DNA of 64,000 bases from the NCBI GenBank assembly GCA_964649825.1, contig CAZYQW010000086.1, positions 21,027 to 85,026 of the forward strand. The letters are read 5' to 3'. Under the pieces are notes generated by a model. The model was not told the origin of the DNA and did no database searches. It saw only the letters and a list, made by a program, of their open reading frames with translations. Source of the stretch: an uncultured Phycisphaeraceae bacterium. Lineage in GTDB: Bacteria > Planctomycetota > B15-G4 > JADJEK01. Positions 23,051 to 64,000 of the stretch are shown here, piece after piece (position 1 is the first letter of the stretch; every line of letters begins with the position of its first letter). Made by a program: the position numbers and the translations under genes.

Positions 23051-23054
23051 CGGA

Positions 23055-23140
23055 TGGGTTCACGACGACGAACGACGCAGAGATCGGCGACGAGCAACCG
23101 CCAGGCGTGGGGCGGGCCCGAATCGATCGGGGTTACCCGG
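23055..23140. repeat. Copy A of a conserved ~80-nt non-coding element (GGGTTCACGACGACGAACGACGCAGAGATCGGCGACGAGCAACCGCCAGGCG...), upstream of the gene at 23345.
   Basis: It aligns at roughly 90% identity, by eye, with 46465-46550. Both copies sit in 5' intergenic regions of secreted-protein genes. Confidence 0.5.
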
Positions 23141-32367: not shown

Positions 32368-32545
32368 CGCCGCTCAGACTATCACGAGCGGTTCCTTTTC
32401 CGGCCTCCGCTCGTCGGGCGCCGCGAATTGGGCGTGACCCGCGAAGGAACCCGGGATTCCATTGCGTCGCCCCCCTGGTTTCATCGCTTCGAGCGACCAT
32501 CCGTCGCGTCGTCCTTACTGAATCGCTCGCCTAAAGGAGGCACCT

Positions 32546-34192
32546 GTGCATACACATCCATCCCTGGTCGCCGGATCGCTCTCGCTCGTCATCGCCGCGG
32601 TGGCCGCCGCCGGCGAATCGTTGCATTCGTACACCGGCATCTCGCCCGACTTCGGGGCGGTGACGGCGGGGATCGGCGACTTCGACGGCGACGGCCGGTC
32701 CGACTGGGCGATCACGTCGTATCACTCGGTCATCGTCTACTCGGGCGCGACCGCGGCGGGGCTGGCGGTCCTCACCGGCCTCCCGGGCGAGGGATTCGGA
32801 GCGGACATCGACGGGATCGGCGACGTGAATCTCGACGGGTTCGCGGATCTGGTCGTTGGTGCGCCGAACCACCTCGTCGACTTCGTGGAGGGGGGCGCCG
32901 CCTACGTCATCGCGGGGGGCACGGGTGCGACGCTTCGCGTGCACCTCGCCACGGAGGCCGACGAGTTCTACGGCCGGCGCGTGGCCGGCGCTGGCGACGT
33001 CGACGCCGACGGCTACGTCGATTACCTGATCGGGGCTCCCTACGCCGACGCGACCGTGGCGGGCTCCAACGAGGGGCGCGCCGAGCTTCGCTCGGGCAAG
33101 GACGGGACGAGCCTGAAGGTGTTCACCGGGACGCTCGGGGGGGTCTACGTCGGCTCCGACGTGACCGGCGTCGGCGACGTCGATCAGGACGGGCACGGCG
33201 ACTTCGCGATCTCCGCCAGCCGCGAGATCGACGCGTTCGGCCAGCGAGTCGGCGCAGTGCGGGTCTACTCCGGGGCGACCGGGACCGCGACCTGGACGCA
33301 GTACGGAACCGTCGTGAACGGAGCGTTCGGGACGGTCATCGATGGAGTCGGCGACGCGAACGGCGACGGCGTCCCCGACATCGTGGTGGGCGCTCCGTAC
33401 GCGAACGGATACCGGGGCTTCGCGCGCGTCCTCTCGGCCGGCAACGGCGCCATCCTCCACCACGTCGACGGAGACGGACCGAACGACCTGTTCGGCATCC
33501 GCGTGGCCGGCGCCGGCGACACGACCGGCGACGGCCGAGCGGAGTTCCTCGTCGCGGCCTCGGCGTTCCCGCTGCTGCCGCCGGTGGAGCCCGCCTACGC
33601 GCGCCTCTACTCCGGTGCGACCGGCCAGGTCGTGCGCCAGTTCGACGCGATGGACGACAACGAGCTGATCGGCGCCGGCGCGGATGGCGTGGGCGACGTC
33701 GACGGGGACGGACTCGCCGACGTGATCATCGGGCGGCCGCGCGTGCCGTTCTCCGGCGGCGACCCCGGCGCGGCGGACGTCCATCGGGGATGCCCGTCCG
33801 CCGTCGTCGCGTTCGGCGCGGGCTGCGCAGGGAGCGGCGGGTTCGTGCCGAAGCTCGCCCTCGACCATTGCATGTTCCCCGGCGGAACGACGACGTTGAC
33901 GATCGCGGACGGGCTCGGCGGATCGACCGCGCTCGTCTTCATCGGAGCGGGACAGTCCTCGGTGCCGCTCGGCGGGGGCTGCTCGTTCCTCGTGAGCGTG
34001 TTCCTCCCCGCGCCGGTCGCGCTCCTGCTGTCGCCGGGTGGCCCCGGCGCCGGCGGCGTCGCGGTTCCGATCTCGCTGCCGTCGCAGATCCTATCGTCGT
34101 GGCAGGCGTCGCTGCAGGCGTTCGTCATCGACGCGGCGTCGCCGATCGGCGTCGCGGCGACGAGCGGGCTCGCGGTCGCGTACGACGGGTAG
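32546..34192 (+). CDS. Secreted FG-GAP/VCBS beta-propeller repeat protein with a ~130-aa C-terminal module shared with the protein at 59074-60864.
   Basis: A GTG start is preceded by AAGGAGG. The signal peptide is followed by at least 7 repeats of DxDGDGxxDxxxGAP. The C-terminus reads GAGCAGSGGFVPKLALDHC... Confidence 0.7.
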   Translation: MHTHPSLVAGSLSLVIAAVAAAGESLHSYTGISPDFGAVTAGIGDFDGDGRSDWAITSYHSVIVYSGATAAGLAVLTGLPGEGFGADIDGIGDVNLDGFADLVVGAPNHLVDFVEGGAAYVIAGGTGATLRVHLATEADEFYGRRVAGAGDVDADGYVDYLIGAPYADATVAGSNEGRAELRSGKDGTSLKVFTGTLGGVYVGSDVTGVGDVDQDGHGDFAISASREIDAFGQRVGAVRVYSGATGTATWTQYGTVVNGAFGTVIDGVGDANGDGVPDIVVGAPYANGYRGFARVLSAGNGAILHHVDGDGPNDLFGIRVAGAGDTTGDGRAEFLVAASAFPLLPPVEPAYARLYSGATGQVVRQFDAMDDNELIGAGADGVGDVDGDGLADVIIGRPRVPFSGGDPGAADVHRGCPSAVVAFGAGCAGSGGFVPKLALDHCMFPGGTTTLTIADGLGGSTALVFIGAGQSSVPLGGGCSFLVSVFLPAPVALLLSPGGPGAGGVAVPISLPSQILSSWQASLQAFVIDAASPIGVAATSGLAVAYDG

Positions 34193-35777: not shown

Positions 35778-38636
35778 TCACGGCGCGTCGAGCACGCCGA
35801 GGAGCCGCCGCGCGCCGCGATGGTCGGGGTCGACCCGGAGCACCTGCTCGACCAGGGTCCTCGCGTGGCGGAGGGCGCCGTCGGCGACGGCGTCCTCCGC
35901 CACCGCCGTCCACGCGTCCAGGTCGTCCGGGTGCTCGGTTCGCCAGCGCCACGTCGCCTCGCGGCGAAGCCCGTCCGCTGGACAGACGCCGCGCACGAAA
36001 CGGAACGTCAACGGGGTCGGCGACGACGCGCGCAAGAGCTGCGCGCACGCGGCGGCGAGTCCGCCGTCCTCGTCGGTCGCGAGCCCCGCGGCGTGGACCA
36101 GGCTAACGTGCGCCAACGGAAAGACCGAGTCGCGCTGGGCGGCCACGAGGAACTCGCGGGCCGCCGCGGCCCGATCGCCGCTCCGGCTGCGACACCACGC
36201 GCGCACGAACGCCATCGTTCCGTCCTCGTTGCTCGCGACGACGCGGTCCAGCGCCGACAGCATCGACTCCCGCGCCTTCCCGAGCAGAAGGACCGAGAGG
36301 GCCGCCGCGGTCGTGTCCCTCCAGTCCCGCGCCACCGACGGCGGAATCCGGAAGAGCGCCTCGGCGAGGCCGTCCTCCATGCCCGCGCTGGCGGTCGCGG
36401 CGAGCCCCGCGAGCGGCACGGCGAGGCGCATCACCGCGTCGAGCTTGGACGGCTCCTCGCCCAACACGCGATGCATCGCCTGCTCCTCGATCACCCGCGA
36501 AGCCTCGGTCACGTTCGCGAGCACGCCGAGCAACGCCCGCAGGATCCCGAGGGCGGACTCGCTCACCCGCGGGTAAGCGTCGACCAGCGCGGCGAGGTTG
36601 CTTCCCTCGACCACGGCCCGGCACCCGAGCTCCACGAACTGCGCCGACGGATCATCCGGGTACAACCGGCGATACTCCCGCGCCGCCTGGAGCGCGCGGG
36701 ACGGATGACCGGTCAACAGCAGCGTCGGCGCGAACATCTCGTTCGCGCGCCGATGACGGGAGTCGGCGGCGAGCGCTCGCTCGAGGTGGAGCCTCGCGGA
36801 CGCGGCGTCGCTCGCGAGCAGGGCGGCCGCGTACTCGGCGTCCGCCGCGTCCAGCCCGCCGCACGCGACGGCGTCCGCGACGAGCTCGAGGTGTCGCGGC
36901 TCGGCCGCGCGCTCCAGGTGCTCCCGCGTATGATCGCCGCGCAGGAGCAGCGTCTTCGCGAGATGGGGTCCGAGCTCGGCCGCCGAGAACCCGGCCAGCT
37001 CATCGATCGCGGCGCGCGCCCGCGCCAGCGCGCCCGCGCCTTCCCACGCCTCGATCTCGGACACGCGGATCCCGATCTCGTCGGCGCAGCCCCGGGCCCG
37101 CGCCTCCGCGTACCGCGCGTGCGCTTCCTCCCAGCGCCCGTAGAGCGCCGCGCGCAGCCCGAGGTTGAAGCTCTCCTCGGCGCTCTTCTGCGCCAGCTCG
37201 TCCCGCGACAGGACCGCGTCCTGCTCGCGAGCCCGCGCGACGTTTCGCTCGCCGCGGATGGCGAAGAGCGCGACGATGACGAGGCCGGTGATCAACGCCA
37301 TCGAGACCGCGGCCGAGACCGCGAGGGGCCGGTTCCGGACCATCCACTTCCGCAGCTCCGCCCACGGGCCCTCCTCGTAGGCGGCGACGACCCGTTGCTC
37401 GAGGAACGCGCGCAGGTCCTCGAGCAGACTGGTCATGCTCGGGTACCGATCGTCCACCCTCCACGCCATCGCCCGTTCGCAGACCGCCACCAGCTCCGCG
37501 GGCGCGTTGCCGGCCTTCGTCGCGAGCGGCGTCGGCGGGCCGCGCCGGGCCAACGCCAGCACGTCGGCCGCCGTCCGAGATTCGCCGCCGTCCAGGTAGG
37601 GCGCGTGGCCCGCGAGCAGCTCGTACAGGATGGCCCCGAACGCGTAGACGTCGGTGGCGGGGCCGATCCGATCGAGGTCGCCCGCGGCCTGTTCCGGCGC
37701 CATGTACGGGGCCGTCCCGACCGCTTCCCCCGGGTCGGTCCGGAGCGGCGAGCCGCGCTCCTCGACCAGAGCGTCGGCCCGCGTCGAGGTGACGCCGGAC
37801 GATGCCGAAGGCGAGCCGTCGGACACGAGCCGCGCGAGGCCCCAGTCCACGACGTACGTCTCTCCGAAGCGCCCGACCATGACGTTCTCCGGTTTGAGGT
37901 CGCGGTGGATCACGCCACGAGAGTGCGCGAACGCGAGCGATTCTCCGGCGCGTAGAAGGACGCCGAGCACCCGGGCTCGATTCCAGCCCTCGACGCCGCT
38001 CCTCGTCTTCGCGAGGACCGCGCGCAGGTCCTCGCCGGAGACGAGCTTCATCGCGTAGAAGACCCGGCCGTCGCGCGTGCCGACGTCGTGGACCGGGACG
38101 ATTCCGGGGTGGTCGAGCTGCGCCGTGACCTGCGCCTCCTCGAGGAATCGCCCGAGGCGGCGTCCGTGCTCGACGTCGCCGGGACGCCCCATCTCGTCGC
38201 TCATCATCTTCAACGCGACGGCGCGCCGGAGGTCGACGTCGAACGCGTGGTACACCTCGCCCATGCCGCCTCGTCCGAGGACCCCGTCGAGCACGTACCG
38301 GGGCTCGCCCGCCGCTCGCGAGCGGACCCGTTCCAGGAGGGCCGCCCACGTCGATGGGTCGCTCGGGTCGCCCTCGACGACCACTCGTCCGGGTTCCCCC
38401 CCGGCCGGCGCGGGCGAGGACGGCGACAGAGCGTCCCACACCAGCCCTTCGTACGCTCCCCAACCCGTCGCCAGCTCGCGGAGCGCCTCGGCATGCTCCG
38501 GGTAGCGGGAGGCCACCGACTCGATCGATCCTTGCTCGCCGCGTTCCCGCGCGGCCAGGTACTCGAGGAACGCGTCCTCGAGCGACGCCCCGTCCGGTCG
38601 ATCACCACCCGAGGCTTCATCCGCTGAAGAACGCAC
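35778..38636 (-). CDS. Ser/Thr protein kinase with a TM helix and a large C-terminal helical/TPR-like region.
   Basis: The kinase motifs read VALKMM, VIHRDLKPENVMV, DWGLAR and GTAPYMAPE. The TM segment reads LAVSAAVSMALITGLVIVALFAI. The start is uncertain. A GTG at 38636 is preferred over ATG 38732, because the interval contains 11-bp tandem repeats that are unlikely to be coding. Confidence 0.75.
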   Translation of the reverse strand: MRSSADEASGGDRPDGASLEDAFLEYLAARERGEQGSIESVASRYPEHAEALRELATGWGAYEGLVWDALSPSSPAPAGGEPGRVVVEGDPSDPSTWAALLERVRSRAAGEPRYVLDGVLGRGGMGEVYHAFDVDLRRAVALKMMSDEMGRPGDVEHGRRLGRFLEEAQVTAQLDHPGIVPVHDVGTRDGRVFYAMKLVSGEDLRAVLAKTRSGVEGWNRARVLGVLLRAGESLAFAHSRGVIHRDLKPENVMVGRFGETYVVDWGLARLVSDGSPSASSGVTSTRADALVEERGSPLRTDPGEAVGTAPYMAPEQAAGDLDRIGPATDVYAFGAILYELLAGHAPYLDGGESRTAADVLALARRGPPTPLATKAGNAPAELVAVCERAMAWRVDDRYPSMTSLLEDLRAFLEQRVVAAYEEGPWAELRKWMVRNRPLAVSAAVSMALITGLVIVALFAIRGERNVARAREQDAVLSRDELAQKSAEESFNLGLRAALYGRWEEAHARYAEARARGCADEIGIRVSEIEAWEGAGALARARAAIDELAGFSAAELGPHLAKTLLLRGDHTREHLERAAEPRHLELVADAVACGGLDAADAEYAAALLASDAASARLHLERALAADSRHRRANEMFAPTLLLTGHPSRALQAAREYRRLYPDDPSAQFVELGCRAVVEGSNLAALVDAYPRVSESALGILRALLGVLANVTEASRVIEEQAMHRVLGEEPSKLDAVMRLAVPLAGLAATASAGMEDGLAEALFRIPPSVARDWRDTTAAALSVLLLGKARESMLSALDRVVASNEDGTMAFVRAWCRSRSGDRAAAAREFLVAAQRDSVFPLAHVSLVHAAGLATDEDGGLAAACAQLLRASSPTPLTFRFVRGVCPADGLRREATWRWRTEHPDDLDAWTAVAEDAVADGALRHARTLVEQVLRVDPDHRGARRLLGVLDAP

Positions 38637-38649
38637 GGGACCTCCTCCT

Positions 38650-38681
38650 CCGCTCGAGTTTCCGCTCGAGTTCCGCTCGGC
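38650..38681. repeat. Tandem 11-bp direct repeat (CCGCTCGAGTT x2 plus a partial copy) in the divergent region between the kinase and ECF sigma genes.
   Basis: The sequence was read directly as tCCGCTCGAGTTtCCGCTCGAGTTCCGCTCGG. The unit length is not a multiple of 3. Confidence 0.4.
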
Positions 38682-38872
38682 GTGCCGCCGCGAGCGACCG
38701 ACCCTCCGCCGAGAAACTCTGGCAGAATCCACGTCCGGTGCGCCGCGCCGCCACGTTCATTGGGGGCAGGACGCGTCCGACGGCTTCGAGACCGCGGAAA
38801 GGAGCGCGCGTGCCCGGCCAGGATCCTACCCCTTCACCCGCCGAGCGGCATGAAACCCCTTCTCGCGACCGC

Positions 38873-40789: not shown

Positions 40790-41227
40790 CTACGCGCGTC
40801 CCGCGAACTGCTCGACCCGCGCAACGTACCGCGGGAACAGATCGAGCGCGGAGCGAACCGAGTGGAGCACGATCTGGTCGTCGATGCGATCGTACTCGTG
40901 GACGAGTCGGTTGCGTAGGCCGGCGGACGGCGCGAGAGACCGCGCGAGGCTCTCGTCGAGCACTCCGATGCCGGCGAGTGCAATGAAGCTCGTGAAGAGA
41001 TCGTCGGGCGCGACCGCTCCGGAGGCAACCAACATGTGGGCATTCAGGTCGACCGCCGCGTCCACGATCTCCTGGAGCAGGCGCTCCGTCGCCTTGCGTC
41101 GATACACGTCCGCGGCGTACGCCTCGACGGAGAGCTCCTTCATCGGCTCGAGCAGGCGGAGGTTCTGCGTGATCCTCTCCAGCTTGCGAAGAACGATGTC
41201 CTGCTCCAGGGGAGACATCTCGCTCAT
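40790..41227 (-). CDS. HepT-like (DUF86) toxin of a HepT/MntA toxin-antitoxin pair.
   Basis: The C-terminal Rx4HxY motif reads RNRLVHEYDRID. The 145-aa ORF overlaps the upstream nucleotidyltransferase gene by 4 nt. Confidence 0.75.
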   Translation of the reverse strand: MSEMSPLEQDIVLRKLERITQNLRLLEPMKELSVEAYAADVYRRKATERLLQEIVDAAVDLNAHMLVASGAVAPDDLFTSFIALAGIGVLDESLARSLAPSAGLRNRLVHEYDRIDDQIVLHSVRSALDLFPRYVARVEQFAGRA

Positions 41228-44346: not shown

Positions 44347-44748
44347 CTACGCGGTCTTGCGGGCGAGCGTCAGCGCAGCGACGTGCTTGCGCACTACTTC
44401 GACGAGCTGCTTCGGCTCGAACGGCTTGCGCATGTACTCGTCGGCGTTGCGATCTCGCGAACCTCGCTCTCCGCGGTTCATCTCCCGCGCGCTGAAGATC
44501 ACGACCGGGGTGTCGCGCGTCGCGTCATCCGTCTTCAGCCGCTCGAGGGTTTCCCACCCGTCGAGGCCCGGCATCATGATGTCGAGCAGGATGACGTGCG
44601 GGCGGCACTCCCGCGCGCGCTGGATTCCATCCTCGCCGCTCGCCGCGGTGATCACCTCGAGCCCGTCGGCCTGAAGCACCATCGCGGTCGATTCCACGAT
44701 CCAAGGGTCGTCGTCGATCACCAAGACTCGGGCGTTGGGCAGCGCCAT
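44347..44748 (-). CDS. Single-domain response regulator (CheY-like receiver).
   Basis: A GGAGGAAGC site precedes ATG 44748. The receiver motifs read RVLVIDDDPW (acid pocket) and HVILLDIMMPGLDG (phospho-Asp). The track N-terminal extension is discarded. Confidence 0.75.
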   Translation of the reverse strand: MALPNARVLVIDDDPWIVESTAMVLQADGLEVITAASGEDGIQRARECRPHVILLDIMMPGLDGWETLERLKTDDATRDTPVVIFSAREMNRGERGSRDRNADEYMRKPFEPKQLVEVVRKHVAALTLARKTA

Positions 44749-44990
44749 GCTTCCTCCGTTGTCGTCACACGCGGGTGTTCCGGATCCCTGAACATGGCCG
44801 ATGGTATCACCTGAGCCCGAACCGAAGATGAATCGACTGCTACCCTTTTTCGGCTGCGCGACGCCGATCGGGCCGTTCGGCCCGCATCCTGCGCCCCGCG
44901 CGATCTCGCTCGATGCACTCAACGTTTTCTCGGACAACGACTTCGAGTCGCCTCACTCGAGCCCGAGAGCGATCGTCCTGAACCTCTTTT

Positions 44991-46280
<1,290 letters not shown>

Positions 46281-46464
46281 CGATCATCCTCCGTCGACGT
46301 CACCCGAACATCATCCCGGACGATTCACGCCCGTCCCGCGAGAAACGGAGCGGCGCGGGAGCACAACCCCTTACTTGGACCGACAGACCCATTGCAAGGA
46401 TTTGGAGCGAGCTTCCCTCGCGGAGTGATCGTCGTCGAGATCCAGGAGTGAGGAGGAGATCGAC

Positions 46465-46550
46465 CCGGGTGGGTTCTCGACGACGAACGACGCAGAGATC
46501 GGCGACGAGCACCCGCCAGGCGCGGGACGGGCGGGAATCGTTCGGGATCA
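46465..46550. repeat. Copy B of the conserved ~80-nt non-coding element (GGGTTCTCGACGACGAACGACGCAGAGATCGGCGACGAGCACCCGCCAGGCG...), upstream of the gene at 46721.
   Basis: It aligns, by eye, at roughly 90% identity with 23055-23140. Confidence 0.5.
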
Positions 46551-46720
46551 TAGGTCCGTTCGCCGCGCAACTCAGCACGACGCGAAGTGGTCGCCGCGAC
46601 AACCACGCGAGGCGCGGGAGAACGCCGTCGCGGAAGGAGACCCGGCGGCGAATCGGCCTGCTATGCTGCGCGCGAACGAGAGCGGACCAGCCCACAACCG
46701 TCCCGCGAAGGAGGAATACC

Positions 46721-47974
46721 GTGTCGTCACTATCGATCCGAGCATGCGTCCTGGCCGCGCTGTCCGCAGCCGTCGCGTCCGCCCATCCCGTCGATGTCGA
46801 CAAGGAGCTGTGGATCCGCGACCTGTCGGTGTTGGACGATCCGATCCGCACCGTCTACGTCGAGAACCCGCCTACCCCATCGCACGGCGCGTGGAGCTTC
46901 GGGCGCCTGATGGAGAACATGGCCGGCACGCACGACGTCTCCGACTTCGTCATCCACCTCTTCCAGGAGTACGAGACGACCCAGACGATCAACGGGTGGT
47001 CGATCCCGCCGCGGCCGGGCATGCTGCAGCAGGTCATCCAGCCGTGGATCGACGCGAGCAAGGCGAATGGCGTCAACGGTCTCGACTTCACCATCGCACC
47101 GTTCGCGCTGACCGGCATCGTCAACCGGATCGACCTGCGCGGGAACGGCTCGTACGGGACGACCACCAGCGGCGGCGAGGGTCGGATCATCTTCAGCGCG
47201 CTCACGGGCGGCTCCGCCACGATCATGACCGTCATCTTCGAGTACGAGCTGCTGGCCGACTCTTGCGAGGACGTCCTGGGGTGGGCCGAGGCGTGGCACG
47301 CGCTCGGCGCGATTCCGTTCGGCCCGGCCTATAACGCGGCGCTCGAAGACCTGGTCGACCGGTTCGCCGGCAAGAACGTCGCTCCCGGCCGGCCGAACGG
47401 CAGCGCGCTCGCCCAGTTCCGCAGCAACGAGCTCGCCGGCGAGTTCCCCTGGCAGTGGCGCGAGTTCCAGCTCACGCCGACCACCGGCTGGCTCGACCAG
47501 GTCACGGTGGCGCAAACGCCGCAGACCGTCATGAACCAGACCAAGGCGCTCCGGGACTACGTCAACCAGAACGAAGCGGCGATCTTGAACGGCACTCATC
47601 TGGTCCCCCTCCAGTTCCAGGCGGCGCCGTTCCGCGGCGGCAGCTCGGACGGCGAGGACAATGGGCTCCGCGCGCACTTCCGCGCCGAAGGGATCCTGAA
47701 CAACGACGCCCGACACCTGTTCTCGCTGAGTACGTGCGTCGCCTGCCACACGGACGAAACGGGGACCGGGTTCTTTCACGCGTTCCCGCGCTCACCGGGC
47801 CAGACGACGCTGCTGTCCGACTTCCTGACCGGCACCACGATCGCCGACCCGGTCGACCCGACGAAGAAGCGATCGTTCAATGACCTGAAGCGCCGCGTCG
47901 CCGACCTCGAGAAACTGTTGAAGTCGACATGCAGCGAGCTCGCGTCCGAGAAGCCGCTGCTGCGCGTGCACTGA
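46721..47974 (+). CDS. Secreted hypothetical protein with a single CxxCH heme-binding motif.
   Basis: An AGGAGG site sits 6 nt before the GTG. The signal peptide reads VSSLSIRACVLAALSAAVASA. The heme motif reads STCVACHTDETG. Its GC content is lower than that of its neighbours. Confidence 0.55.
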   Translation: MSSLSIRACVLAALSAAVASAHPVDVDKELWIRDLSVLDDPIRTVYVENPPTPSHGAWSFGRLMENMAGTHDVSDFVIHLFQEYETTQTINGWSIPPRPGMLQQVIQPWIDASKANGVNGLDFTIAPFALTGIVNRIDLRGNGSYGTTTSGGEGRIIFSALTGGSATIMTVIFEYELLADSCEDVLGWAEAWHALGAIPFGPAYNAALEDLVDRFAGKNVAPGRPNGSALAQFRSNELAGEFPWQWREFQLTPTTGWLDQVTVAQTPQTVMNQTKALRDYVNQNEAAILNGTHLVPLQFQAAPFRGGSSDGEDNGLRAHFRAEGILNNDARHLFSLSTCVACHTDETGTGFFHAFPRSPGQTTLLSDFLTGTTIADPVDPTKKRSFNDLKRRVADLEKLLKSTCSELASEKPLLRVH

Positions 47975-48065
47975 CCGCGCCCTTTACTTTCCGGATCCAC
48001 GTCGTTCGGCATCTGGACGCGGCGACCTCGACTGACCCAGCCCGGTTCCGTCCAATTCCGCGCCG

Positions 48066-49037
48066 TCAGCACGCGGCCGCCGCGTCCTTCGCGAAGTAGG
48101 TCAACACGAAATCCGCCCCCGCTCGCACGATCCCCGTGAGCGACTCCATCATCACCCGGTCGTGATCGAGCCACCCGTTCGCCGCCGCTGCCTTCAGCAT
48201 CGCGAACTCCCCGCTCACCTGATACGCGGCGATCGGCACGTCGAACCTCCGCCGCGCGTTGGCGATCACGTCGAGGTACGGCATCGCGGGCTTCACCATG
48301 ATCACGTCGGCGCCCTCTTCGACGTCGAGCGCGATCTCGGCCATCGCCTCGCGGCCGTTCGGCGGGTCCATCTGGTAGGTGCGCCGGTCGCCGAACCGCG
48401 GCGCCGAGTCGGCGGCGTCGCGGAACGGGCCGTAGAAGCCCGAGCAGTACTTCGCGGCGTAGGAGAGGATGGCGACGTCGTCGAAGCCGTTCTCGTCGAG
48501 CGCGCGTCGGATCGCGGCCACGCGGCCGTCCATCATGTCGGACGGAGCGACGACGTCGGCGCCGGCCTTCGCGTACGCGACGGCGGCCGCTGCGAGGCGC
48601 GGGAGCGTCGGATCGTTCAGGACTTCCTCCCCGCTCACGATGCCGCAATGACCGTGGTCCGTGTATTCGCAGAGGCACACGTCGGCTATCACGACCAGGT
48701 CGGGGCACTCGGCCTTCAGCGCGCGGATCGCCTGCGGCACGACGCCCTCGGGGTCGTCGGCACCGTTGCCGGCGCCGTCCTTCTCCGGCGGCAGGCCGAA
48801 CAGGATCACGCCCGGCACGCCCAGCTCGAACGCCTCGACCGCGTCCTCGACCAGCGGCTCGACCGATTGACGGTGGACGCCGGGCATCGACGGCACCTCG
48901 TGGCGCACCCCCTCGCCGGAGCAGACGAACTGCGGGTAGATGAAGCGATCGGGCGTGAGACGGGTTTCGCGCACGAGGCGCCGCACTCCTTCGGAGGCGC
49001 GCAGTCGACGCAGTCGTCGGTCGGGGAATCCCACCAT
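48066..49037 (-). CDS. hemB: Porphobilinogen synthase (delta-aminolevulinate dehydratase).
   Basis: The ORF starts at ATG 49037 and reads [25 protein letters not shown]. It contains [14 protein letters not shown], the SYAAKY Schiff-base lysine, and [10 protein letters not shown]. Confidence 0.9.
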
Positions 49038-49063: not shown

Positions 49064-49831
49064 TCAGCGTTCGACGCGGCCGGCCCGAAGCGCGGCGTCG
49101 GCGAGCGCGGACAGCGCGGCGCTCGATGACGCGGCGGCCACTCGCACTCCGAGCCTCGCCAGCGCGGCCGAGGCGGTCCGGCCGAGAACCACCTGCCTCG
49201 ATCCGGAGAGACAGGCTCGCGCGCGCGCCGGACCGATCGCGGCGACGAGCGCGCTCACCGCCGAGCCGGACGCCCATGTCACCACATCGATGGTCTCGTT
49301 CAAGAGCTGCCGCTCCATCGCCTCCGCCGCGGCCACGCCGGCGAAGACGGTCCGGTACGCGATCACCTCGGTGACGAGCGCCCCGCGCCGCTCGAGCGCG
49401 TCGGGCAGCACGCGCCGCGCCTGGTCGCCGAGCGGCAGGAGGACGCGGCGTCCGCGGAGCGGGCCCGAGCGCTCGAGCGCACCGACGAGCCCGTGCGCGT
49501 CGGCGCGCTTCGGCACGATCGCGACGGTGAGACCGACGTCGCGAAGCCGTTCCGCGGTGCGCGCGCCGACCGCGGCGAGCGCCGGTCCGGCGAGCGATGG
49601 TGCGGGGCTCATGCGGCCGGCGGCCGCCAGGAGGGACTCCACCGCGTGGCGGCTCGTGAAGGCGACGAGGTCGAACGACGCGAAGGTTCGCGCCGCCGCG
49701 TCGAGCCGGGCGGGGTCGCGCGGAGCCGCGATGCGAAGCAGAGGATGCACGGCCACGACGGCGCCGCGGTCGGAGAGGAGGCGCGTCAGCTCGCCGTCGT
49801 CGTCGGGCCGGGTGACCACGACGACGGTCAT
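49064..49831 (-). CDS. hemD: Uroporphyrinogen-III synthase.
   Basis: The ORF starts at ATG 49831 and reads [19 protein letters not shown]...[12 protein letters not shown]. It sits in the hem operon between hemC and hemB. Confidence 0.7.
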
Positions 49832-50745
49832 CGGCCCCCTCCGCGCCGGAGGCCGGCGACGAGCGCGGCGCCGACCTCCGCCCCAACGCCGGCCGCGGCG
49901 GCGACGGCGCCCTCCAGCCCGCGCTCGACCCGCACCTCGAGATCCTCGCTGAACAGGACCGCGCGGAGCCGAAGGCGATCGCCGTCGACCTCGGCGTGCG
50001 CGCCGAGCGGCAACGAGCAACCGCCTCCCGCCGCGAGCAGCACGGCTCGCTCGGCCGTGACCGCCGCGCGGGTCCAGGGGTCGTCCAGCCGCTCGCGCAG
50101 GAACTCGGCGACCTCGTCGTCGCGCGACTCGACGGCCAGCGCGCCCTGGCCCGGAGCGGGAAGCACGACGTCGAGCGCGAACGTCTCGATCGCCTCGGCG
50201 CCGCGACCAAGCCGGTCAAGGCCCGCCATCGCCAGCACGATCGCGCCGAACTCGCCGTCCCGGAGCTTCCGGATCCGCGTGTCGACGTTGCCGTGCACCG
50301 GGACGAAGTCCAGATCGGGCCGCCGGAAACGCATCTGCGCGACGCGGCGCGGAGATCCGGTCGCGACGCGCGCCGCGGGGGCGAGCTCCGCGAAGCACGG
50401 ACCGTTCGAGAGCAACGCGTCGCGCGCGTCGGCCCGCGGCGGGATCGCCGCGATCGTCAACCCGTCCGGCACCTCGGCCGGGAGGTCCTTCAACGAATGG
50501 ACGGCGAAGTCGATCCGGCCGTCACGGAGCGCCTCCTCGAGCGCGCCGGTGAAGAGCCCCTTCGGCAGGGACCGGCCGGGCGCGATCGGATGTTCCTGCC
50601 GGCGGTCGCCCTCGGTTCTCACGAGGACCGTCTCGATCTCGATCGCCGGATCCGACGCACGGATCGCGTCGGCCACGTGGCCGGACTGCGTTCGCGCGAG
50701 CAGGCTTCCCCGCGTTCCGAGCCGGAGCCGCCGCGGTGCCGTCAC
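49828..50745 (-). CDS. hemC: Hydroxymethylbilane synthase (porphobilinogen deaminase).
   Basis: The proposed GTG start at 50745 gives [15 protein letters not shown]. The protein contains HSLKDLP and the cofactor Cys region [11 protein letters not shown]. Confidence 0.85.
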
Positions 50746-52025
50746 TTCGACTCGTCCTCGTCGAGCTCGAACAGCTCGCGCAGCGTCTTGGCGAATCCAC
50801 CTAGACGCTCGCCGCCCCCCTTCAGCCGCCGCGTCGGGGTCTGGAGGAGCTTGTCGATCAGGACCCTCGAGAAGAGCTCGACGGACTCGTGGTGCTCCTT
50901 CGGGATCCGCCCGATCGCGCGCGCGAGCTCCCGGCCGCGGATCGAGTCGAAGCGTCCATGGAGCTGGCGGAGCAACGGGTCGAGCTCGCGCGCGGCGCCC
51001 CACCAATCCGCGAACGCCGCGAGCTCGCGCTCCACGAACCGCAGCACGCGCGGAACCTCGCCCTCGCGCCGCCGGCGCGTAGCGTCGGCGAGCGCCTCCA
51101 GGTCGTCGAGGTCGTAGAGGAACACGTCTCCGAGGTCGGCCGCGGCGGGATCCACGTTGCGCGGCACGCCGACGTCGATGAGGAGGAGGTGAGGTCCCTC
51201 GCGCCCGCGCATCGCGCGCGCGACGTCATCCGCCGCGAGGACGTAGTCGCCGCCGCTCGGCGCGGCCGCGGCCAGGACGATGTCGGCCTCGTGCAGGCGG
51301 CGGTAGGCGTCTTCGCGCGGCAGCGCGTGGGCGCCGATCCGCTCGGCGAGATGCGTCGCGCGCTCGATGCCGTGCCCCGTGATCCAGACCCGCGCGACGC
51401 GCCGCTGCTTCAACGCGCGCGCGACCGTTCCCCCCGTCTCGCCGGCGCCGATCAGCAGCACGGTCCGCCGCTCGAGGTCGTCGAACACCTTCGCCGCGAG
51501 GTCCACCGCGATCGACCCGATCGAGGCGGCACCGGCCGAGATCCGCGTCTCGGTGTGCGCCCGCTTCGCCACGCGGAACGACGCGGGGAACAGCCGCCGG
51601 AACGTGGGGCCGACCGATCGGAGCTCCACCGCCTCGTCGTACGCGTCGCGCACCTGGGCCAGGATCTGGGTCTCGCCGAGCACCATCGAGTCGAGCCCGG
51701 CCGCGACCGACAACGCGTGCGCCACCGCCTCTCGCCCGTCGAACGTCACGAACGTCCCGTCGGGAAGCTCGCGGCCCGGGTCCTTGAGGTCGCGGAACGC
51801 GTCGACCAAGCGCGCGGCCGGCAGCGCGTCCTCGGACCCCGGCTCACCGGCGGCGTAGACCTCCGTCCGGTTGCACGTCGACAGGACGACCGCCTCGCGG
51901 ACGCCGTCGACCCCGAGCACGCGCCGCGTCACCTCGGCCCGATCGGGGACGTCCAGGGCGACGCGCTCGCGCACCTCGACCGAGGCGGTGCGATGCGACA
52001 CGCCGACGACGGCGATGCTCCTCAC
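50742..52025 (-). CDS. hemA: Glutamyl-tRNA reductase.
   Basis: The proposed GTG start at 52025 gives VRSIAVVGVSHRTASVEVRERVAL. The protein contains the catalytic VLSTCNRTEVY, the NADPH motif LLIGAGETG, and GVPRNVDP. Confidence 0.85.
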   Translation of the reverse strand: MRSIAVVGVSHRTASVEVRERVALDVPDRAEVTRRVLGVDGVREAVVLSTCNRTEVYAAGEPGSEDALPAARLVDAFRDLKDPGRELPDGTFVTFDGREAVAHALSVAAGLDSMVLGETQILAQVRDAYDEAVELRSVGPTFRRLFPASFRVAKRAHTETRISAGAASIGSIAVDLAAKVFDDLERRTVLLIGAGETGGTVARALKQRRVARVWITGHGIERATHLAERIGAHALPREDAYRRLHEADIVLAAAAPSGGDYVLAADDVARAMRGREGPHLLLIDVGVPRNVDPAAADLGDVFLYDLDDLEALADATRRRREGEVPRVLRFVERELAAFADWWGAARELDPLLRQLHGRFDSIRGRELARAIGRIPKEHHESVELFSRVLIDKLLQTPTRRLKGGGERLGGFAKTLRELFELDEDESK

Positions 52026-52828
52026 GACGGGCTCCAGAACGGATGATCGGTGCGCCCGAGCGAGTAGAGCACGGCGATCATCAGGGTTCCCGCGAGAGGG
52101 ATCCACATCACGCGGATCCCGCGCCAGCCGAGCAGGAACCGGCTGAGGACGTCGGCCGCGAACAGCACCCACAACGCCGCGGCGAAAATCACCTTCGGGT
52201 CGCCCGGCACGCCGCCCTGGAAGGAGGCGAACGTGAAGAACCCGATGACGAGCCCGAACGTGAGCGCTACGAAACCGACGCGGACCGACACCGACGACTT
52301 CGTCTCGAGGGTCGAGAGGGACGGCAGGCGATCGAACCAGAAGCCGATCCGCCGCTGCTTCATGACGCGGTAGAGGATGTGGTACAGCAGGCTGTAGACG
52401 CCGGCGACCGCGAACGCCGCGTACGCGATCAGGACGAAGCCGCCGTGCAGCTCGGCGAACGCGCGCTCCCGTGGGCGCGGCGCCTGCGTCGGCGCGCTCG
52501 GCTCGATGAGCTGCCCGCCGAGGTCGAGCAGGCACGCGATGAGCACGAGGACCAGCACCTTCGCCTGATCGGTCGCGCCGGGGCGGAAGCCGAAGATCAG
52601 ATGGAGCGCGAGGAAGAGCGCGACGATCCCCATGCCGCCGCCGGTCCCCGACACCGGACAGAGGCCCGGCTCGAGGAAGGTGGCGACGCGCGTCACCACG
52701 GCGGCGACGATCAGGACGAGCACGGAGTAGCGCGAGACCGCGCCGCGACGTCGCAGGTCGAGCGCGGCGGCCACCGCCGCCGCCGCGAACAGGACGCTCG
52801 GAACGAACGTGGCCAACCGATCGATCAA
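52022..52828 (-). CDS. Cytochrome c assembly family membrane protein (CcsA/ResC-like). Its position corresponds to HemX of the Bacillus hemAXCDBL arrangement.
   Basis: The 268-aa polytopic membrane protein overlaps the hemA start by 4 nt. Its C-terminus is W-rich (FAAALWVLFAADVLSRFLLGWRGIRVMW). Confidence 0.65.
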   Translation of the reverse strand: MIDRLATFVPSVLFAAAAVAAALDLRRRGAVSRYSVLVLIVAAVVTRVATFLEPGLCPVSGTGGGMGIVALFLALHLIFGFRPGATDQAKVLVLVLIACLLDLGGQLIEPSAPTQAPRPRERAFAELHGGFVLIAYAAFAVAGVYSLLYHILYRVMKQRRIGFWFDRLPSLSTLETKSSVSVRVGFVALTFGLVIGFFTFASFQGGVPGDPKVIFAAALWVLFAADVLSRFLLGWRGIRVMWIPLAGTLMIAVLYSLGRTDHPFWSPS

Positions 52829-52912
52829 GGCTTCTCGTGCTCCGGTTCCGTGCGTGTCAGAACGGATAGAGCGTACGCGGCGCCCGTTCCCCGCGGTAGC
52901 GGGAAGCCGCGG

Positions 52913-60864: not shown

Positions 60865-61175
60865 CGGGGGCTCCAGTTGGGTTCCAGGCTTCAGCTTCTT
60901 CGCGTGCCGCGAAGAACTTGAAGCATATCCACCCGACACGTGACCGCGTCCTCAGGCGCACACGTGGCGTGTGCTTCCTCGGTTGCGGTCCTACCGCGTT
61001 GGGTCGATCGGGGTCGAGTCGATGATGGGCTCGGAAGAGTAACTCATGGGTCGCGCGGCGGACAGACGTCGCCTGCGGATCGCGCCTTCGGCCGCCGCGG
61101 CCCCGGCGGCGCGAAAAAGGACGAGATCCGCGTAAGCGCCCCGGCCCGACTACGCTTCTCCGATCGGAACGACCC

Positions 61176-64000
61176 ATGAAGCTGCCCCACGACGCCTCCG
61201 ACTCGGGATCCCGCGACGCCGACCTGATCCGCGCCGCGCAGGACGACGCCCGGGCGCTGCGAGGGGCGGGGAACGAACGCCGGGCTCCGATCGGCGCGAT
61301 CCGCTTCCCCGGGTACGTCGTCGAGGCGGAGATCCACCGCGGCGGCCAGGGCGTCGTCTTCCGTGCCCGCCAGGAGGGCACCGGACGGCCGGTCGCGATC
61401 AAGCTGCTCCACGGCGGGCCGTTCGCGGGCGACCGCGAGCGGGTCCGGTTCGAGCGCGAGGCGCAGATCCTGGCGCGCCTCAAGCATCCGAACATCGTCG
61501 CGATCCACCACACCGGGCAGTCGGGCGAGGCCGGAGGCGGCGCCTACTTCGTGATGGACCACGTGGACGGCCGGCACCTCGACCGGTACGTGGAGGAGAC
61601 CCGGCTCGCCCCGCGCGCCGTCGTCGTGCTGTTCGAGAAGATCTGCGACGCGGTCCACGCCGCGCACCTCCACGGAGTCATCCACCGCGACTTGAAGCCG
61701 AGCAACATCCGCGTCGACGCGCGCGGCGAGCCGCACGTGCTCGACTTCGGCCTGGCGAAGAGCACGAGCGCCCTGCCGGACCGAACGCCGCCCGTGACCG
61801 ACCCGGGACAGTTCATCGGCTCGCTGCCGTTCGCGAGCCCCGAGCAGGCGGCCGGCGACGGCGGCGCGGTCGACCTGCGGACCGACGTGTACGCGATCGG
61901 CGTGATGCTCTACGTCTGCCTGACCGGCGCGCATCCGTACGACGTCTCCGGGCCGTTGAAGCGCTCCCTCGACAACATCCTGAACGCCGCGCCGGCGCCG
62001 CCGGCGCGACTTCGCCCCGACGTCGACGACGACGTGGCGAGCATCGTGCTCCGCTGTCTCGAGAAGGACCCGCGCCGCCGATACCAGGGCGCCGGCGAGG
62101 TCGCGCGCGACCTCCGCCGCTTCCTCGACGGCGAACCGGTGGACGCGAAACGCGACCGCGCCTTGTACGTCATCTCACGGACGCTGTCCCGCTACCGCAT
62201 GCAGGTCGGCCTCGCCCTCGGGTTCGTCGGAGTGATCGCGGCCGGACTGGTGACGGCGCTCCTCCTTTGGAGCGTCGCGGCGCGCGAACGCGACGCCGCG
62301 TACGAGGCGGGGCTCGCCGCCGACGCGGCTCGCGCCGCGGCCGAGCGCAAGCAGCAGGACCTCGCGCGCCAGCTCTACTTCCACCGGCTGCTCGCGGCGC
62401 AGGTCGCGCTCGACGACGGAAACGTCGCGCGCGTGCGCGAGCTCCTCGATGAAAGCCCGGCCGAGCTCCGCGGCTGGGAGTGGCGGCACCTGGCGTGGAT
62501 GGCCGACCGCTCGGCGCGCACGTTCGTGGCCGGCCGTCCGTTGCTCTGCGTCGACGTGTCGCCGGGAAACGATCGGATCGCGGCCGGCGACGCCGACGGC
62601 GCCCTCCACGTATGGAACGCGATGAGCGGCGCGGTCCTCGACGCACGGCCGCGCCACGACGGCGCGATCCACGGAGTTCGATTCGGTCCCGGCGAGCTCG
62701 TCGCCACCGCCGGCGAGGACGGCGTGGTCCGAGTGACGGACGCGGTCCGCGACGTCACGCTCCCCGGCGCCGGGAGCGAGGTGCGCTGCGTGACGTTCAC
62801 GAACGACGGCGGCGTCGTCGCCGGCGACGACGGCGGCCGCGGCTTCCGGTGGGACGTCGCGACGTCGCGCGAGCTCGCGCGCCGCGAGCTCGGGGGCTCG
62901 ATCCTATCGATCGTCTCTCATGCGATGACGAACGAGGTGCTCGCCGCTGGACGGGACGGCGCGGTGTTCGCGCTCGACGCGGCCACGCTGGAGGTCCGCC
63001 GCGAGGTCGCGCGGCTCGACGCGGGCGTCACGAGCCTCGCGCTCCACGAATCCTCCGGCACCCTCGCGGCCGGCATGGTCAACGGCACGGCCGCGATCAT
63101 CGATCTCCCGAGCGGAGCCGAACGCGGCCGCGTCCGCGCGCACGGCGAGTGGGTGCACGCGGTGTCGTTGAGCGCGGATGGGCTCTTCCTCCTGACCGCC
63201 GGCGCCGACCACACGGTGATGGCGTGGAACGTACGCACGCTGGATCGCGACCGGACGTACCGCGGTCCCACCGACCGCGTCTTCGGCGTCCGCTTCCTCG
63301 CCGACGGCAGGAGCGTCGTCTGCGCGTCTCTCGACGGCACGGTCCGCCTCTTCGACCGCGACGCCGCCGATCGCGCGCGGGTGTTCCAGAGCCACGATGG
63401 ACAGGTCTGGTGCGCCGACTTCGTCGACGCCGGACGCACGTTCGTCGCGGGCGGATCGGACGGTCGACTGCGGCGGTTCGACACGCGCGACGTCACCGGC
63501 GTGCCGCTCGCCCGGCGCGCCCACGACGGGGCCGTGACCTCGCTGGTCGTCGATCGGGCCGAAGAGGTCGTCGTCGCGGCGGGCGCCGACGGACGGGTCA
63601 AGCGCTTCCGCCTCCCCGAGCTGCGGCCGGACGGCGAGCTCTTCGCCGGCGGAGCGTGGATCCACGCGCTCGCGCTGTCGCCGGACGGCGGCACGGTGGC
63701 CGTCGCCTCGCACGACTCGACGGTGCACCTGGTCGCGGCTCGCGACGACGGCGCGCCTCCGCGCCTCCTGGCCACGCTCGAGCGCCGGCCGTACGCGATC
63801 GGGTTCGCCCGCGGCGGCCAGGAGATCGTGGTCGGCGACGCGGCGGGACGGCTCGTTCGCCTCGACGCGAGCCGCGGTGTCACGCGGTCGATCGATCCCG
63901 TCCACGACGGCGTCATCTGGTCGCTCGCGGTCGCCCCCGACGGCGCCACCGTGGCGACCGCATCGGCCGACGGCACGGCGACGATCATCTCGCTCGACGA
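61176..64000 (+). CDS. Ser/Thr protein kinase fused to a TM helix and a WD40 beta-propeller. It is partial and continues past the window end.
   Basis: The kinase motifs read VAIKLLH, VIHRDLKPSNIRV, DFGLAK and GSLPFASPEQ. The TM segment reads VGLALGFVGVIAAGLVTALLLW. Multiple WD-like repeats follow (DGxxxVWN, DxxVRLFD and similar). It is absent from the ORF track because no stop codon is reached. Confidence 0.8.
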   Translation, partial: MKLPHDASDSGSRDADLIRAAQDDARALRGAGNERRAPIGAIRFPGYVVEAEIHRGGQGVVFRARQEGTGRPVAIKLLHGGPFAGDRERVRFEREAQILARLKHPNIVAIHHTGQSGEAGGGAYFVMDHVDGRHLDRYVEETRLAPRAVVVLFEKICDAVHAAHLHGVIHRDLKPSNIRVDARGEPHVLDFGLAKSTSALPDRTPPVTDPGQFIGSLPFASPEQAAGDGGAVDLRTDVYAIGVMLYVCLTGAHPYDVSGPLKRSLDNILNAAPAPPARLRPDVDDDVASIVLRCLEKDPRRRYQGAGEVARDLRRFLDGEPVDAKRDRALYVISRTLSRYRMQVGLALGFVGVIAAGLVTALLLWSVAARERDAAYEAGLAADAARAAAERKQQDLARQLYFHRLLAAQVALDDGNVARVRELLDESPAELRGWEWRHLAWMADRSARTFVAGRPLLCVDVSPGNDRIAAGDADGALHVWNAMSGAVLDARPRHDGAIHGVRFGPGELVATAGEDGVVRVTDAVRDVTLPGAGSEVRCVTFTNDGGVVAGDDGGRGFRWDVATSRELARRELGGSILSIVSHAMTNEVLAAGRDGAVFALDAATLEVRREVARLDAGVTSLALHESSGTLAAGMVNGTAAIIDLPSGAERGRVRAHGEWVHAVSLSADGLFLLTAGADHTVMAWNVRTLDRDRTYRGPTDRVFGVRFLADGRSVVCASLDGTVRLFDRDAADRARVFQSHDGQVWCADFVDAGRTFVAGGSDGRLRRFDTRDVTGVPLARRAHDGAVTSLVVDRAEEVVVAAGADGRVKRFRLPELRPDGELFAGGAWIHALALSPDGGTVAVASHDSTVHLVAARDDGAPPRLLATLERRPYAIGFARGGQEIVVGDAAGRLVRLDASRGVTRSIDPVHDGVIWSLAVAPDGATVATASADGTATIISLD

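What the first reader, a model, noticed from the sequence alone, without database searches (positions are those of the whole stretch)
46465..47974. Second copy of the element together with a lower-GC secreted CxxCH protein inserted between hemB and hemL
The heme-biosynthesis genes on the minus strand run hemX-like, hemA, hemC, hemD, hemB. hemL lies on the same strand further along, and a plus-strand gene interrupts the run. That gene encodes a ~417-aa secreted protein with a single c-type heme motif (CVACH), a strong AGGAGG-GTG start and noticeably lower GC. Copy B of the conserved element precedes it. Placement inside a heme operon suggests a heme-dependent or heme-handling function. The GC difference suggests the gene was acquired.
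Basis: partly seen in the sequence, partly recalled or inferred. Interest (0 to 1): 0.5.

Follow-up and report, generated by a model that had tools for sequence, protein, structure and literature searches.

The report
Uncharacterised secreted CxxCH protein in heme operon
A gene for a secreted protein of unknown function, probably carrying one covalently bound heme, has been inserted with a small repeat element between two heme-synthesis genes of an uncultured planctomycete. The location is a lineage-specific accident, but the protein belongs to a large, unnamed family whose predicted fold matches no solved structure.

Summary
A plus-strand gene (46721-47974, 417 aa, AGGAGG-N6-GTG, signal peptide, one CVACH) interrupts a minus-strand hemX-like/hemA/hemC/hemD/hemB...hemL run. 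It is preceded by the second copy of an 81-nt repeat.

Two parts of the interpretation fail.
- The lower GC (0.670 against a gene mean of 0.704) comes only from codon positions 1 and 2. GC3 (0.916) is above the window mean, so composition gives no sign of recent foreign origin.
- Position in the heme operon says nothing about function. The three nearest relatives have hemB directly followed by hemL. Homologues of the gene in six other genomes lie in six unrelated contexts, never near hem genes.

So the 1.8-kb segment is a lineage-specific insertion.

Best reading: a secreted c-type haem protein of a new fold, with no invariant sixth ligand. The "element" is part of a ~240-nt repeat bounded by terminal inverted repeats.

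The parts
46721..47974 (+). CDS of the 417-aa secreted CxxCH protein (GTG start, TGA stop)
   Evidence: Homologues begin at the same N-terminus. GC by codon position is 0.62/0.47/0.92.
46709..46714 (+). Shine-Dalgarno sequence AGGAGG, six bases before the GTG
   Evidence: Read from the sequence.
46721..46783 (+). Signal peptide (residues 1-21, ...AVASA|HP)
   Evidence: Sequence inspection. All family members have N-terminal hydrophobic leaders, and some have a lipobox.
47735..47749 (+). Codons for C339-V-A-C342-H343, the putative covalent haem attachment site
   Evidence: Invariant in 263 of 263 aligned family members.
46310..46551 (+). Full copy of a ~240-nt repeat bounded by inverted repeats. 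Arms are 46310-46340 and 46521-46551; the inner stem is 46429-46443 / 46472-46486.
   Evidence: The arms are 31 nt and 90% complementary. Homologous to three elements in metagenome Ga0224508.
46466..46546 (+).
   Evidence: 90% identical to 23051-23131. A 34-nt core is identical in both.
23051..23131 (+). Copy A, a 5'-truncated copy. It starts right after the stop codon of a GT4 glycosyltransferase gene and lies ~215 nt upstream of a CarboxypepD_reg-repeat protein gene.
   Evidence: nhmmer matches only model positions 141-198.
48066..49037 (-). hemB (porphobilinogen synthase)
   Evidence: Pfam ALAD, E = 1e-146. Start codon read.
44991..46280 (-). hemL (glutamate-1-semialdehyde 2,1-aminomutase), with its own GGAGG seven bases upstream of the ATG
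   Evidence: TIGR00713, E = 4e-180, above cut-off. Sequence.
49064..52912 (-). Upstream part of the hem cluster: hemD (stop at 49064), hemC (stop at 49828), hemA (stop at 50742) and a HemX-like Cytochrom_C_asm gene (52022-52912). Exact start codons were not determined.
   Evidence: Pfam HEM4, Porphobil_deam, GlutR_N/Shikimate_DH/GlutR_dimer and Cytochrom_C_asm.
44347..44937 (-). Response-regulator gene downstream of hemL, used as a synteny anchor shared with relative L093
   Evidence: Pfam Response_reg. Same position in L093.
47964..47990 (+). Weak terminator-like hairpin with a T-rich tail, overlapping the stop codon
   Evidence: 1 found against 0.8 expected in shuffles, so it is not evidence on its own.

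Best explanation
What it is. The 46721-47974 gene encodes a Sec-exported ~43-kDa protein of a large, unnamed extracytoplasmic family. I propose that it carries one covalently attached (c-type) haem at C339/C342, with H343 as the proximal ligand.

How I think it works (inferred).
- After export, the cytochrome c maturation system attaches haem to the CxxCH.
- The haem sits between the short C-terminal segment (about residues 325-417) and the large alpha/beta N-terminal body.
- The N-terminal body supplies invariant charged residues (R136, D138, R155, E174, R234, R247, R331).
- No His or Met is universally conserved as a sixth ligand, so the distal face is probably open or weakly ligated. That suits a catalytic or ligand-binding haem better than a simple electron carrier.
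- Fusion of the domain to lectin, discoidin, CARDB and Ig modules in longer relatives points to action at the cell surface or on extracellular polymers.

Why it is here. Its position between hemB and hemL comes from a lineage-specific 1.8-kb insertion into an ancestral hemX/A/C/D/B/L operon of an uncultured planctomycete. The insertion also holds a ~240-nt repeat bounded by inverted repeats. It does not indicate a role in haem synthesis. One consequence follows: hemL, cut off from hemB by an antisense gene, must now be transcribed from a promoter inside 46281-46720.

Shown: gene anatomy, motif invariance, family size and architectures, absence of any known family or fold match, and the insertion.
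Inferred: haem attachment, the open distal site, an enzymatic role, and the new hemL promoter.
For: - Gene, Shine-Dalgarno sequence, signal peptide and CVACH.
- C339, C342 and H343 are invariant in 263 of 263 domain hits drawn from clusters at 50% or lower identity. L130, R136, D138 and R247 are also invariant (28-sequence alignment).
- The best candidates for a sixth ligand are only partly conserved: H353 70% (Q 26%), H332 75%, H193 73%, M64 70%.
- Family size: 2826 clusters at E <= 1e-3 and 1587 at E <= 1e-30. The ~390-aa domain always matches nearly end to end, alone or inside proteins of up to 2738 aa.
- Fused modules: Laminin_G_3, CARDB, Big_6/7/13, F5/8 type C, choice-of-anchor X and an M36-protease-associated region.
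- No Pfam, NCBIfam, PHROG or PADLOC model matches.
- Insertion: L093 has the same gene order with a 3-nt hemB-hemL gap, and L092 and L094 have hemB directly before hemL. About 24 of 80 distant loci have hemL directly after hemB, and none carries this gene.
- Homologues lie in unrelated contexts.
- Host: the best named GlyRS relatives (82%, 76% and 70% identical) are all Planctomycetota MAGs.
Against: - No significant similarity to any cytochrome c family. The cytochrome c555 hit at E = 0.0012 is the sum of three ~5.8-bit matches to a trimeric construct. The single domain scores E about 2.
- Pfam Haem_bd and Cytochrome_CBB3 appear only at E = 0.09-0.25, in 1-2 of 28 members.
- Haem attachment is inferred from a five-residue motif.
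- No conserved gene neighbour gives a functional clue.
- A cytochrome c maturation system could not be confirmed from a 64-kb window.
Confidence: 0.55

Rival explanations
1. The CxxCH is not a haem site. C339 and C342 form a redox-active or structural disulfide, or together with H343 and E346 they bind a metal ion (Zn, Cu or Fe). On this reading the protein is a non-haem extracellular enzyme or binding protein.
For: - No significant match to any cytochrome family or fold.
- E346 and T347 just after the motif are 97% and 95% conserved, which could complete a metal site.
- Other Cys pairs typical of secreted proteins are present: C182 and C404 are each found in about 45% of members.
Against: - Absolute invariance of all three residues in exactly the C-x-x-C-H spacing, in an exported protein, is the signature used by bacterial haem lyases. 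This rests on established knowledge of Ccm and Ccs substrate recognition.
- A structural disulfide is rarely 100% conserved together with the adjacent His across about 2800 clusters.
Confidence: 0.25
2. The protein is functionally tied to haem synthesis or handling, for example haem export, scavenging or sensing. On this reading it was recruited to the hem cluster for co-regulation.
For: - It lies physically between hemB and hemL and shares a 440-nt divergent control region with hemL.
- It has a possible haem-binding motif.
Against: - It is on the opposite strand.
- It is absent from the hem clusters of the three nearest relatives and of 80 further hemB loci.
- Six homologues (43-78% identical) lie elsewhere, with no hem genes within 8 kb.
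Confidence: 0.07
3. The arrangement with the gene between hemB and hemL is ancestral, and relatives lost the gene. On this reading there was no insertion.
For: The nearest available relatives are only 68-74% identical in hemL and hemB, so the branch is long.
Against: - The contiguous hemB-hemL pair is found across many phyla, including Bacillota, Acidobacteriota, Chloroflexota and Verrucomicrobiota.
- It is also found in all three nearest relatives, so independent precise losses would be needed.
- The segment also contains a mobile-looking repeat.
Confidence: 0.05

Closest known systems
Monohaem c-type cytochromes and c-type haem enzymes with an open distal site (class I cytochromes c such as Aquifex c555 / Hydrogenobacter c552; cytochrome c', cytochrome P460)
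   Same: - It is exported.
- It has a single CxxCH preceded by a short helix (model helices 328-336 and 339-342).
- The weak local alignment to c555/c552 covers the N-terminal helix, the CxxCH and a following 'FL.G' segment.
- Like c' and P460, it has no conserved sixth ligand.
   Different: - At 417 aa it is four to five times larger.
- The CxxCH lies near the C-terminus, behind a ~300-residue alpha/beta body.
- No statistically significant sequence or fold match was found.
Planctomycete PSCyt/PSD-type secreted proteins (Pfam PF07635, PF07583, PF07627 and associated DUF158x families)
   Same: They are large families of exported planctomycete proteins of unknown function built around a CxxCH motif. 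The host here is a planctomycete.
   Different: - No match to any of these Pfam models, even at E <= 10.
- The family is not confined to Planctomycetota. Members come from Myxococcaceae, Competibacteraceae, Sulfurifustis and Hydrogenedentota.
hemAXCDBL operon of Bacillus subtilis and many other bacteria
   Same: The same gene set and order are present on one strand: a HemX-like Cytochrom_C_asm gene, hemA, hemC, hemD, hemB and hemL. L074 (Sporosarcina) and L093 show the contiguous form.
   Different: - Here the HemX-like gene precedes hemA.
- A 1.8-kb antisense insert separates hemB from hemL.
MITEs (miniature inverted-repeat transposable elements)
   Same: - The upstream element is ~210-240 nt and non-coding.
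- It is bounded by 27-31-nt terminal inverted repeats.
- It is present at several unrelated intergenic sites, in either orientation relative to neighbouring genes.
   Different: - The inverted-repeat sequence differs between the window copy and the metagenome copies, while an internal 34-nt core is identical.
- Target-site duplications could not be established.
- The plus strand folds 15-30 kcal/mol more stably than the minus strand in the metagenome copies, which hints at an RNA-level role.
- No parent transposon was identified.

Membership tests
c-type cytochrome / c-type haem protein | CxxCH haem-attachment motif, conserved across homologues | tested here: met
   CVACH at residues 339-343. 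C, C and H are invariant in 263 of 263 sequences.
c-type cytochrome / c-type haem protein | Export to the compartment where haem is attached (signal peptide or membrane anchor) | tested here: met
   N-terminal n/h/c regions with ASA|H. Homologues have leaders or lipoboxes. This is sequence inspection only; no dedicated predictor was run.
c-type cytochrome / c-type haem protein | Sequence or fold similarity to a recognised cytochrome c class | tested here: not met
   - Pfam and NCBIfam give no hit.
- A PDB profile search scores a single cytochrome c552 domain at E = 2.3.
c-type cytochrome / c-type haem protein | Covalently bound haem demonstrated | not testable with these tools
   Needs haem staining, a pyridine haemochrome spectrum or mass spectrometry.
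c-type cytochrome / c-type haem protein | Cytochrome c maturation system (Ccm or CcsBA) present in the genome | tested here: inconclusive
   Only 64 kb is available. The one Cytochrom_C_asm-family gene (52022-52912) occupies the HemX position of the hem operon, so it cannot be counted as CcsA.
Planctomycete PSCyt / PSD families | Match to PF07635, PF07583, PF07627 or the associated PSD models | tested here: not met
   No Pfam family at E <= 1 for the protein, and none of these at E <= 10 for 28 members.
Member of the haem-biosynthesis operon | Same strand as, and co-transcribed with, the hem genes | tested here: not met
   The gene is on the plus strand. All hem genes are on the minus strand.
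Member of the haem-biosynthesis operon | Conserved co-location with hem genes in other genomes | tested here: not met
   - Absent from L092-L094 and from 80 hemB loci.
- Six homologues have no hem neighbours.
Recently acquired foreign gene (genomic islet) | Deviating composition at synonymous sites | tested here: not met
   GC3 is 0.916 against a window gene mean of 0.891. Total GC is only 1 sd below the mean.
Recently acquired foreign gene (genomic islet) | Break of conserved synteny relative to related genomes | tested here: met
   Relatives have a 3-155-nt hemB-hemL spacer. The window has 1785 nt.
MITE (the upstream element) | Terminal inverted repeats bounding a short non-coding unit | tested here: met
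   The window copy has 31-nt arms, 90% complementary. L086 and L087 have 27-28-nt arms.
MITE (the upstream element) | Multiple dispersed copies at unrelated sites | tested here: met
   One full and one truncated copy in the window, plus three copies on three contigs of Ga0224508. The genome-wide copy number is unknown.
MITE (the upstream element) | Target-site duplication and a related autonomous transposon | tested here: inconclusive
   Flanks were inspected. A TA or TAG duplication is possible at L087 and L088 but not clear at L086 or in the window. No transposase gene was found nearby.

The most novel reading that the evidence does not exclude
The gene represents a widespread family (about 2800 clusters at 50% identity) of extracellular haem-c enzymes that has not been described. 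It would have a fold absent from the PDB, with a single c-type haem that has an open distal site lined by invariant Arg, Asp and Glu residues. It would act on extracellular substrates, for example by oxidising polymers or detoxifying small molecules, as suggested by fusions to lectin, discoidin and CARDB modules. Separately, the upstream repeat may be a structured RNA rather than a plain MITE.
Probability: 0.35. Interest if true: 0.65.

Novelty: new variant of a known kind. Interest (0 to 1): 0.4.

Why it matters
The heme-operon context is a red herring, so the finding does not reveal a new heme-synthesis or heme-handling component.

What remains is still useful.
- This is a large family of secreted bacterial proteins with an absolutely conserved haem-attachment motif.
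- It has no Pfam or NCBIfam model, no characterised member and no solved structural relative.
- Defining it would add a protein family and probably a fold. It could also uncover a new extracellular redox activity in Planctomycetota, Myxococcota and several proteobacterial groups.

The locus also gives a clean natural example of a canonical, translationally coupled hemB-hemL junction split by an antisense insertion. That split forces hemL onto a new promoter next to a mobile-looking repeat.

Tried and rejected
- **Family libraries.** Pfam, NCBIfam, PHROGs and PADLOC scans of the protein gave no hit. A Pfam scan of 28 members at E <= 10 gave only noise.
- **PDB by sequence profile.** The apparent cytochrome c555 hit (E = 0.0012) is an artefact of a three-fold repeated construct.
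- **Function from gene neighbourhood.** Six homologue loci share no neighbour. FG-GAP proteins are nearby in two of them and in the window, but they are not adjacent and not consistent.
- **Recent foreign acquisition inferred from GC.** Rejected on GC3.
- **Element as a known RNA.** Rfam returned only two tRNAs at gathering threshold, and only noise (E about 2-5) in 46250-46760. The 101-nt segments fold no better than shuffles.
- **Element as a small ORF.** Both copies can be read as M/V-GSRRRTTQRSATS..., but only one of the base differences between the copies is synonymous. Rejected.
- **Element as a DGR template/variable repeat pair.** Rejected: only some of the differences are at adenines, the element lies outside any CDS, and no reverse transcriptase was seen among the window ORFs scanned.
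- **More element copies.** A 30-mer gave 0 hits in the GTDB representative genomes. nhmmer over the window plus 1.4 Mb of fetched loci found no further copies.
- **Close relatives through hemB.** The best genome-contig hits were only about 65% identical, so the nearest relatives had to be reached through hemL homologues.
- **Names.** A cluster-member look-up returned no annotation.
- **Literature.** One full-text search gave nothing relevant to this family.

Full report
**1. What is at the coordinates**

The window is 70.8% G+C. The gene runs from 46721 to 47974 on the plus strand. It starts with GTG, six bases after AGGAGG (46709-46714), and ends with TGA, giving 417 codons. The longer ORF listed from 46448 is an upstream extension through non-coding sequence, because all homologues start at the same N-terminus as the 46721 start.

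The product begins MSSLSIRACVLAALSAAVASA|HPVDV. By inspection this is a Sec signal peptide with an ASA cleavage motif. It contains a single CxxCH (CVACH, residues 339-343, nt 47735-47749).

The minus strand carries these genes:
- a Cytochrom_C_asm (HemX-like) gene at 52022-52912
- hemA (GlutR_N, Shikimate_DH and GlutR_dimer domains)
- hemC (Porphobil_deam)
- hemD (HEM4)
- hemB at 48066-49037 (ALAD, E = 1e-146)
- after the plus-strand gene, hemL at 44991-46280 (TIGR00713, E = 4e-180) and a response regulator at 44347-44937

**2. GC content**

The gene has 0.670 GC against a mean of 0.704 (sd 0.032) for 32 genes of the window. That is z = -1.05, rank 5 of 32. The deficit lies entirely in codon positions 1 and 2 (0.62 and 0.47), which reflects amino-acid composition. 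GC3 is 0.916, above the window mean of 0.891. Composition therefore gives no evidence of recent foreign origin.

**3. Is it an insertion?**

Yes, as far as available genomes allow. No close relative exists in the collections, so I reached the nearest ones through hemL homologues, which are 66-70% identical.

- L093 carries the HemX-like gene, hemA, hemC, hemD, hemB, hemL and a response regulator on one strand, with 3 nt between hemB and hemL. This is the window's order without the intervening segment.
- L092 and L094 also have hemB directly before hemL, with gaps of about 115 and 155 nt.
- Among 80 more distant hemB loci from many phyla, about 24 have hemL directly downstream. None contains a homologue of the target gene.

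Homologues of the target gene were located in six other genomes. They are 78, 75, 63, 58, 57 and 43% identical by tblastn. They lie in six different neighbourhoods with no hem gene within 8 kb.

The 1785 nt between hemB and hemL (46281-48065) are therefore a lineage-specific insertion. The location carries no functional information about the protein. As a consequence, hemL can no longer be translationally or transcriptionally coupled to hemB. It must use a promoter inside 46281-46720, although no sigma-70 consensus was detected there.

**4. The protein family**

The protein matches no model in Pfam, NCBIfam, PHROGs or PADLOC. Yet it has more than 441 word-sharing homologues, all annotated 'hypothetical'. 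An exhaustive profile search found 2826 clusters at 50% identity (E <= 1e-3), of which 1587 score E <= 1e-30.

The ~390-residue unit nearly always matches end to end. It occurs alone (about 420 aa, as here) or inside proteins of up to 2738 aa. In those longer proteins it is fused to these modules:
- Laminin_G_3
- CARDB
- Big_6, Big_7 and Big_13
- F5/8 type C
- choice-of-anchor X
- a region associated with M36 proteases

These are all extracellular or surface modules. Named sources include Planctomycetota, Myxococcaceae, Competibacteraceae, Sulfurifustis and Hydrogenedentota.

In an alignment of 267 domain hits, C339, C342 and H343 are present in all 263 sequences that cover the columns. L130, R136, D138 and R247 are equally invariant. 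R155, E174, R234, R331, E346 and R392 are at least 97% conserved.

No His or Met is universally conserved as a potential sixth ligand. The best candidates are H353 at 70% (Q in 26%), H332 at 75%, H193 at 73% and M64 at 70%. C182 and C404 each occur in about 45% of members, including this protein, and may form a disulfide.

**5. Fold**

A PDB profile search seemed to hit cytochrome c555 at E = 0.0012. That value is the sum of three ~5.8-bit matches to a covalently linked trimer, and the single c552 domain scores E = 2.3. The local alignment (helix, CxxCH, 'FL.G') is suggestive but not significant.

**6. Most likely mechanism**

The protein is exported, and the C-x-x-C-H spacing is absolutely invariant. 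Bacterial haem lyases recognise essentially this motif in unfolded exported substrates, which is established knowledge of the Ccm and Ccs systems. The best-supported reading is therefore a c-type haem protein of a new fold.

Three features favour a catalytic or ligand-binding haem acting outside the cytoplasm over a soluble electron shuttle:
- there is no invariant distal ligand
- there is a cluster of invariant Arg, Asp and Glu residues
- the domain is fused to carbohydrate-binding and adhesion modules

These steps are inferred, not shown. The main rival reading is a non-haem metal or disulfide site.

**7. The 'element'**

The 81-nt repeat (46466-46546 and 23051-23131, 90% identical) is real. 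Its 34-nt core gave 0 matches in 100 shuffles of the window.

In copy B it is the right-hand part of a larger unit, 46310-46551. That unit is bounded by 31-nt inverted arms that are 90% complementary, and it has an inner stem at 46429-46443 / 46472-46486.

A 24-mer of the core hits three contigs of one JGI metagenome, Ga0224508. Each of these copies has the following properties:
- It is about 210-235 nt long and intergenic. In L087 it is packed between the stop codon of a nusB-like gene and the start codon of ftsY.
- It has its own 27-28-nt terminal inverted repeats.
- It lies in either orientation relative to its neighbours.

Copy A is 5'-truncated and begins right after the stop codon of a GT4 glycosyltransferase gene.

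The element has no Rfam match. No further copies were found in the window or in 1.4 Mb of other loci. It behaves like a MITE.

Two features hint at something more, possibly an RNA-level structure:
- the internal core is far better conserved than the inverted repeats
- the plus strand folds 15-30 kcal/mol more stably than the minus strand in the metagenome copies

With only four sequences the covariation (14 compensated pairs) cannot separate an RNA structure from co-evolving inverted repeats. The element is not a dedicated control element of secreted-protein genes.

**8. Host**

The best named homologues of the window's glycyl-tRNA synthetase (82%, 76% and 70% identical) are all from Planctomycetota MAGs. 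The 100%-identical proteins come from an NCBI contig of 95,172 nt and from sample SRR10083321.

**9. Verdict**

The insertion is real and a haem cofactor is plausible. The GC argument and the 'operon context implies haem function' argument do not hold.
- The lasting interest is the protein family itself. It is large, extracytoplasmic and motif-invariant, with no family model, no characterised member and no solved fold relative.

Noticed in passing
window 46310-46551; L086:943-1154, L087:303-513, L088:1709-1916: The ~210-240-nt repeat bounded by inverted repeats has a 34-nt core that is identical in both window copies and largely shared (24-nt exact match) with copies in an unrelated metagenome (Ga0224508), while the terminal inverted repeats differ. 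Six stem pairs show compensatory changes between the window and metagenome versions. The plus strand is 15-30 kcal/mol more stable than the minus strand in the metagenome copies. It could be a MITE with a functional RNA core, or a new small-RNA family.
   Followed up: partly
window 46281-46720: The left arm of the repeat starts 29 nt upstream of the hemL start codon. The insertion cut hemL off from hemB, so the element may now supply or border the hemL promoter. No sigma-70 consensus was found there.
   Followed up: partly
L003 (Logan SRR10083321 contig; P0006): A 73-75%-identical homologue of the target protein comes from the same sequencing run as the window's own gene, next to a Ser/Thr kinase gene. 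It may be a paralogue in the same genome or a gene of a co-occurring relative.
   Followed up: no
window 8192-10324 (+) and 23345-25267 (+): Two paralogous secreted proteins are built from about six CarboxypepD_reg repeats. The second lies downstream of element copy A.
   Followed up: no
window 40790-41150 (-): A HepT-like ribonuclease domain (PF01934, E = 3e-22) occupies the C-terminal third of a long mechanical ORF. It is probably a small HepT/MNT toxin-antitoxin module between the pseudouridine synthase gene and the sulfatase gene.
   Followed up: no
window 28886-32092 (-), 35778-38756 (-), 61026-64000 (+): At least two large Ser/Thr protein kinase genes are present (28886-32092, with TPR repeats, and 35778-38756). 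A 139-nt inverted match at 71% (30982-31120 / 61776-61914) suggests the unannotated ORF at 61026-64000 may share a conserved domain with the first of them.
   Followed up: no
window 32522-34192 (+); L089, L090: An FG-GAP repeat protein lies about 12 kb from the target gene. FG-GAP proteins, each beside a 288-aa protein with no Pfam match, also lie within 2-7 kb of the target homologues in L089 and L090. The association is weak and non-adjacent.
   Followed up: no
window 8154-8228 (-), 14900-14973 (-): Two tRNA genes are the only Rfam matches in the window at gathering threshold.
   Followed up: no
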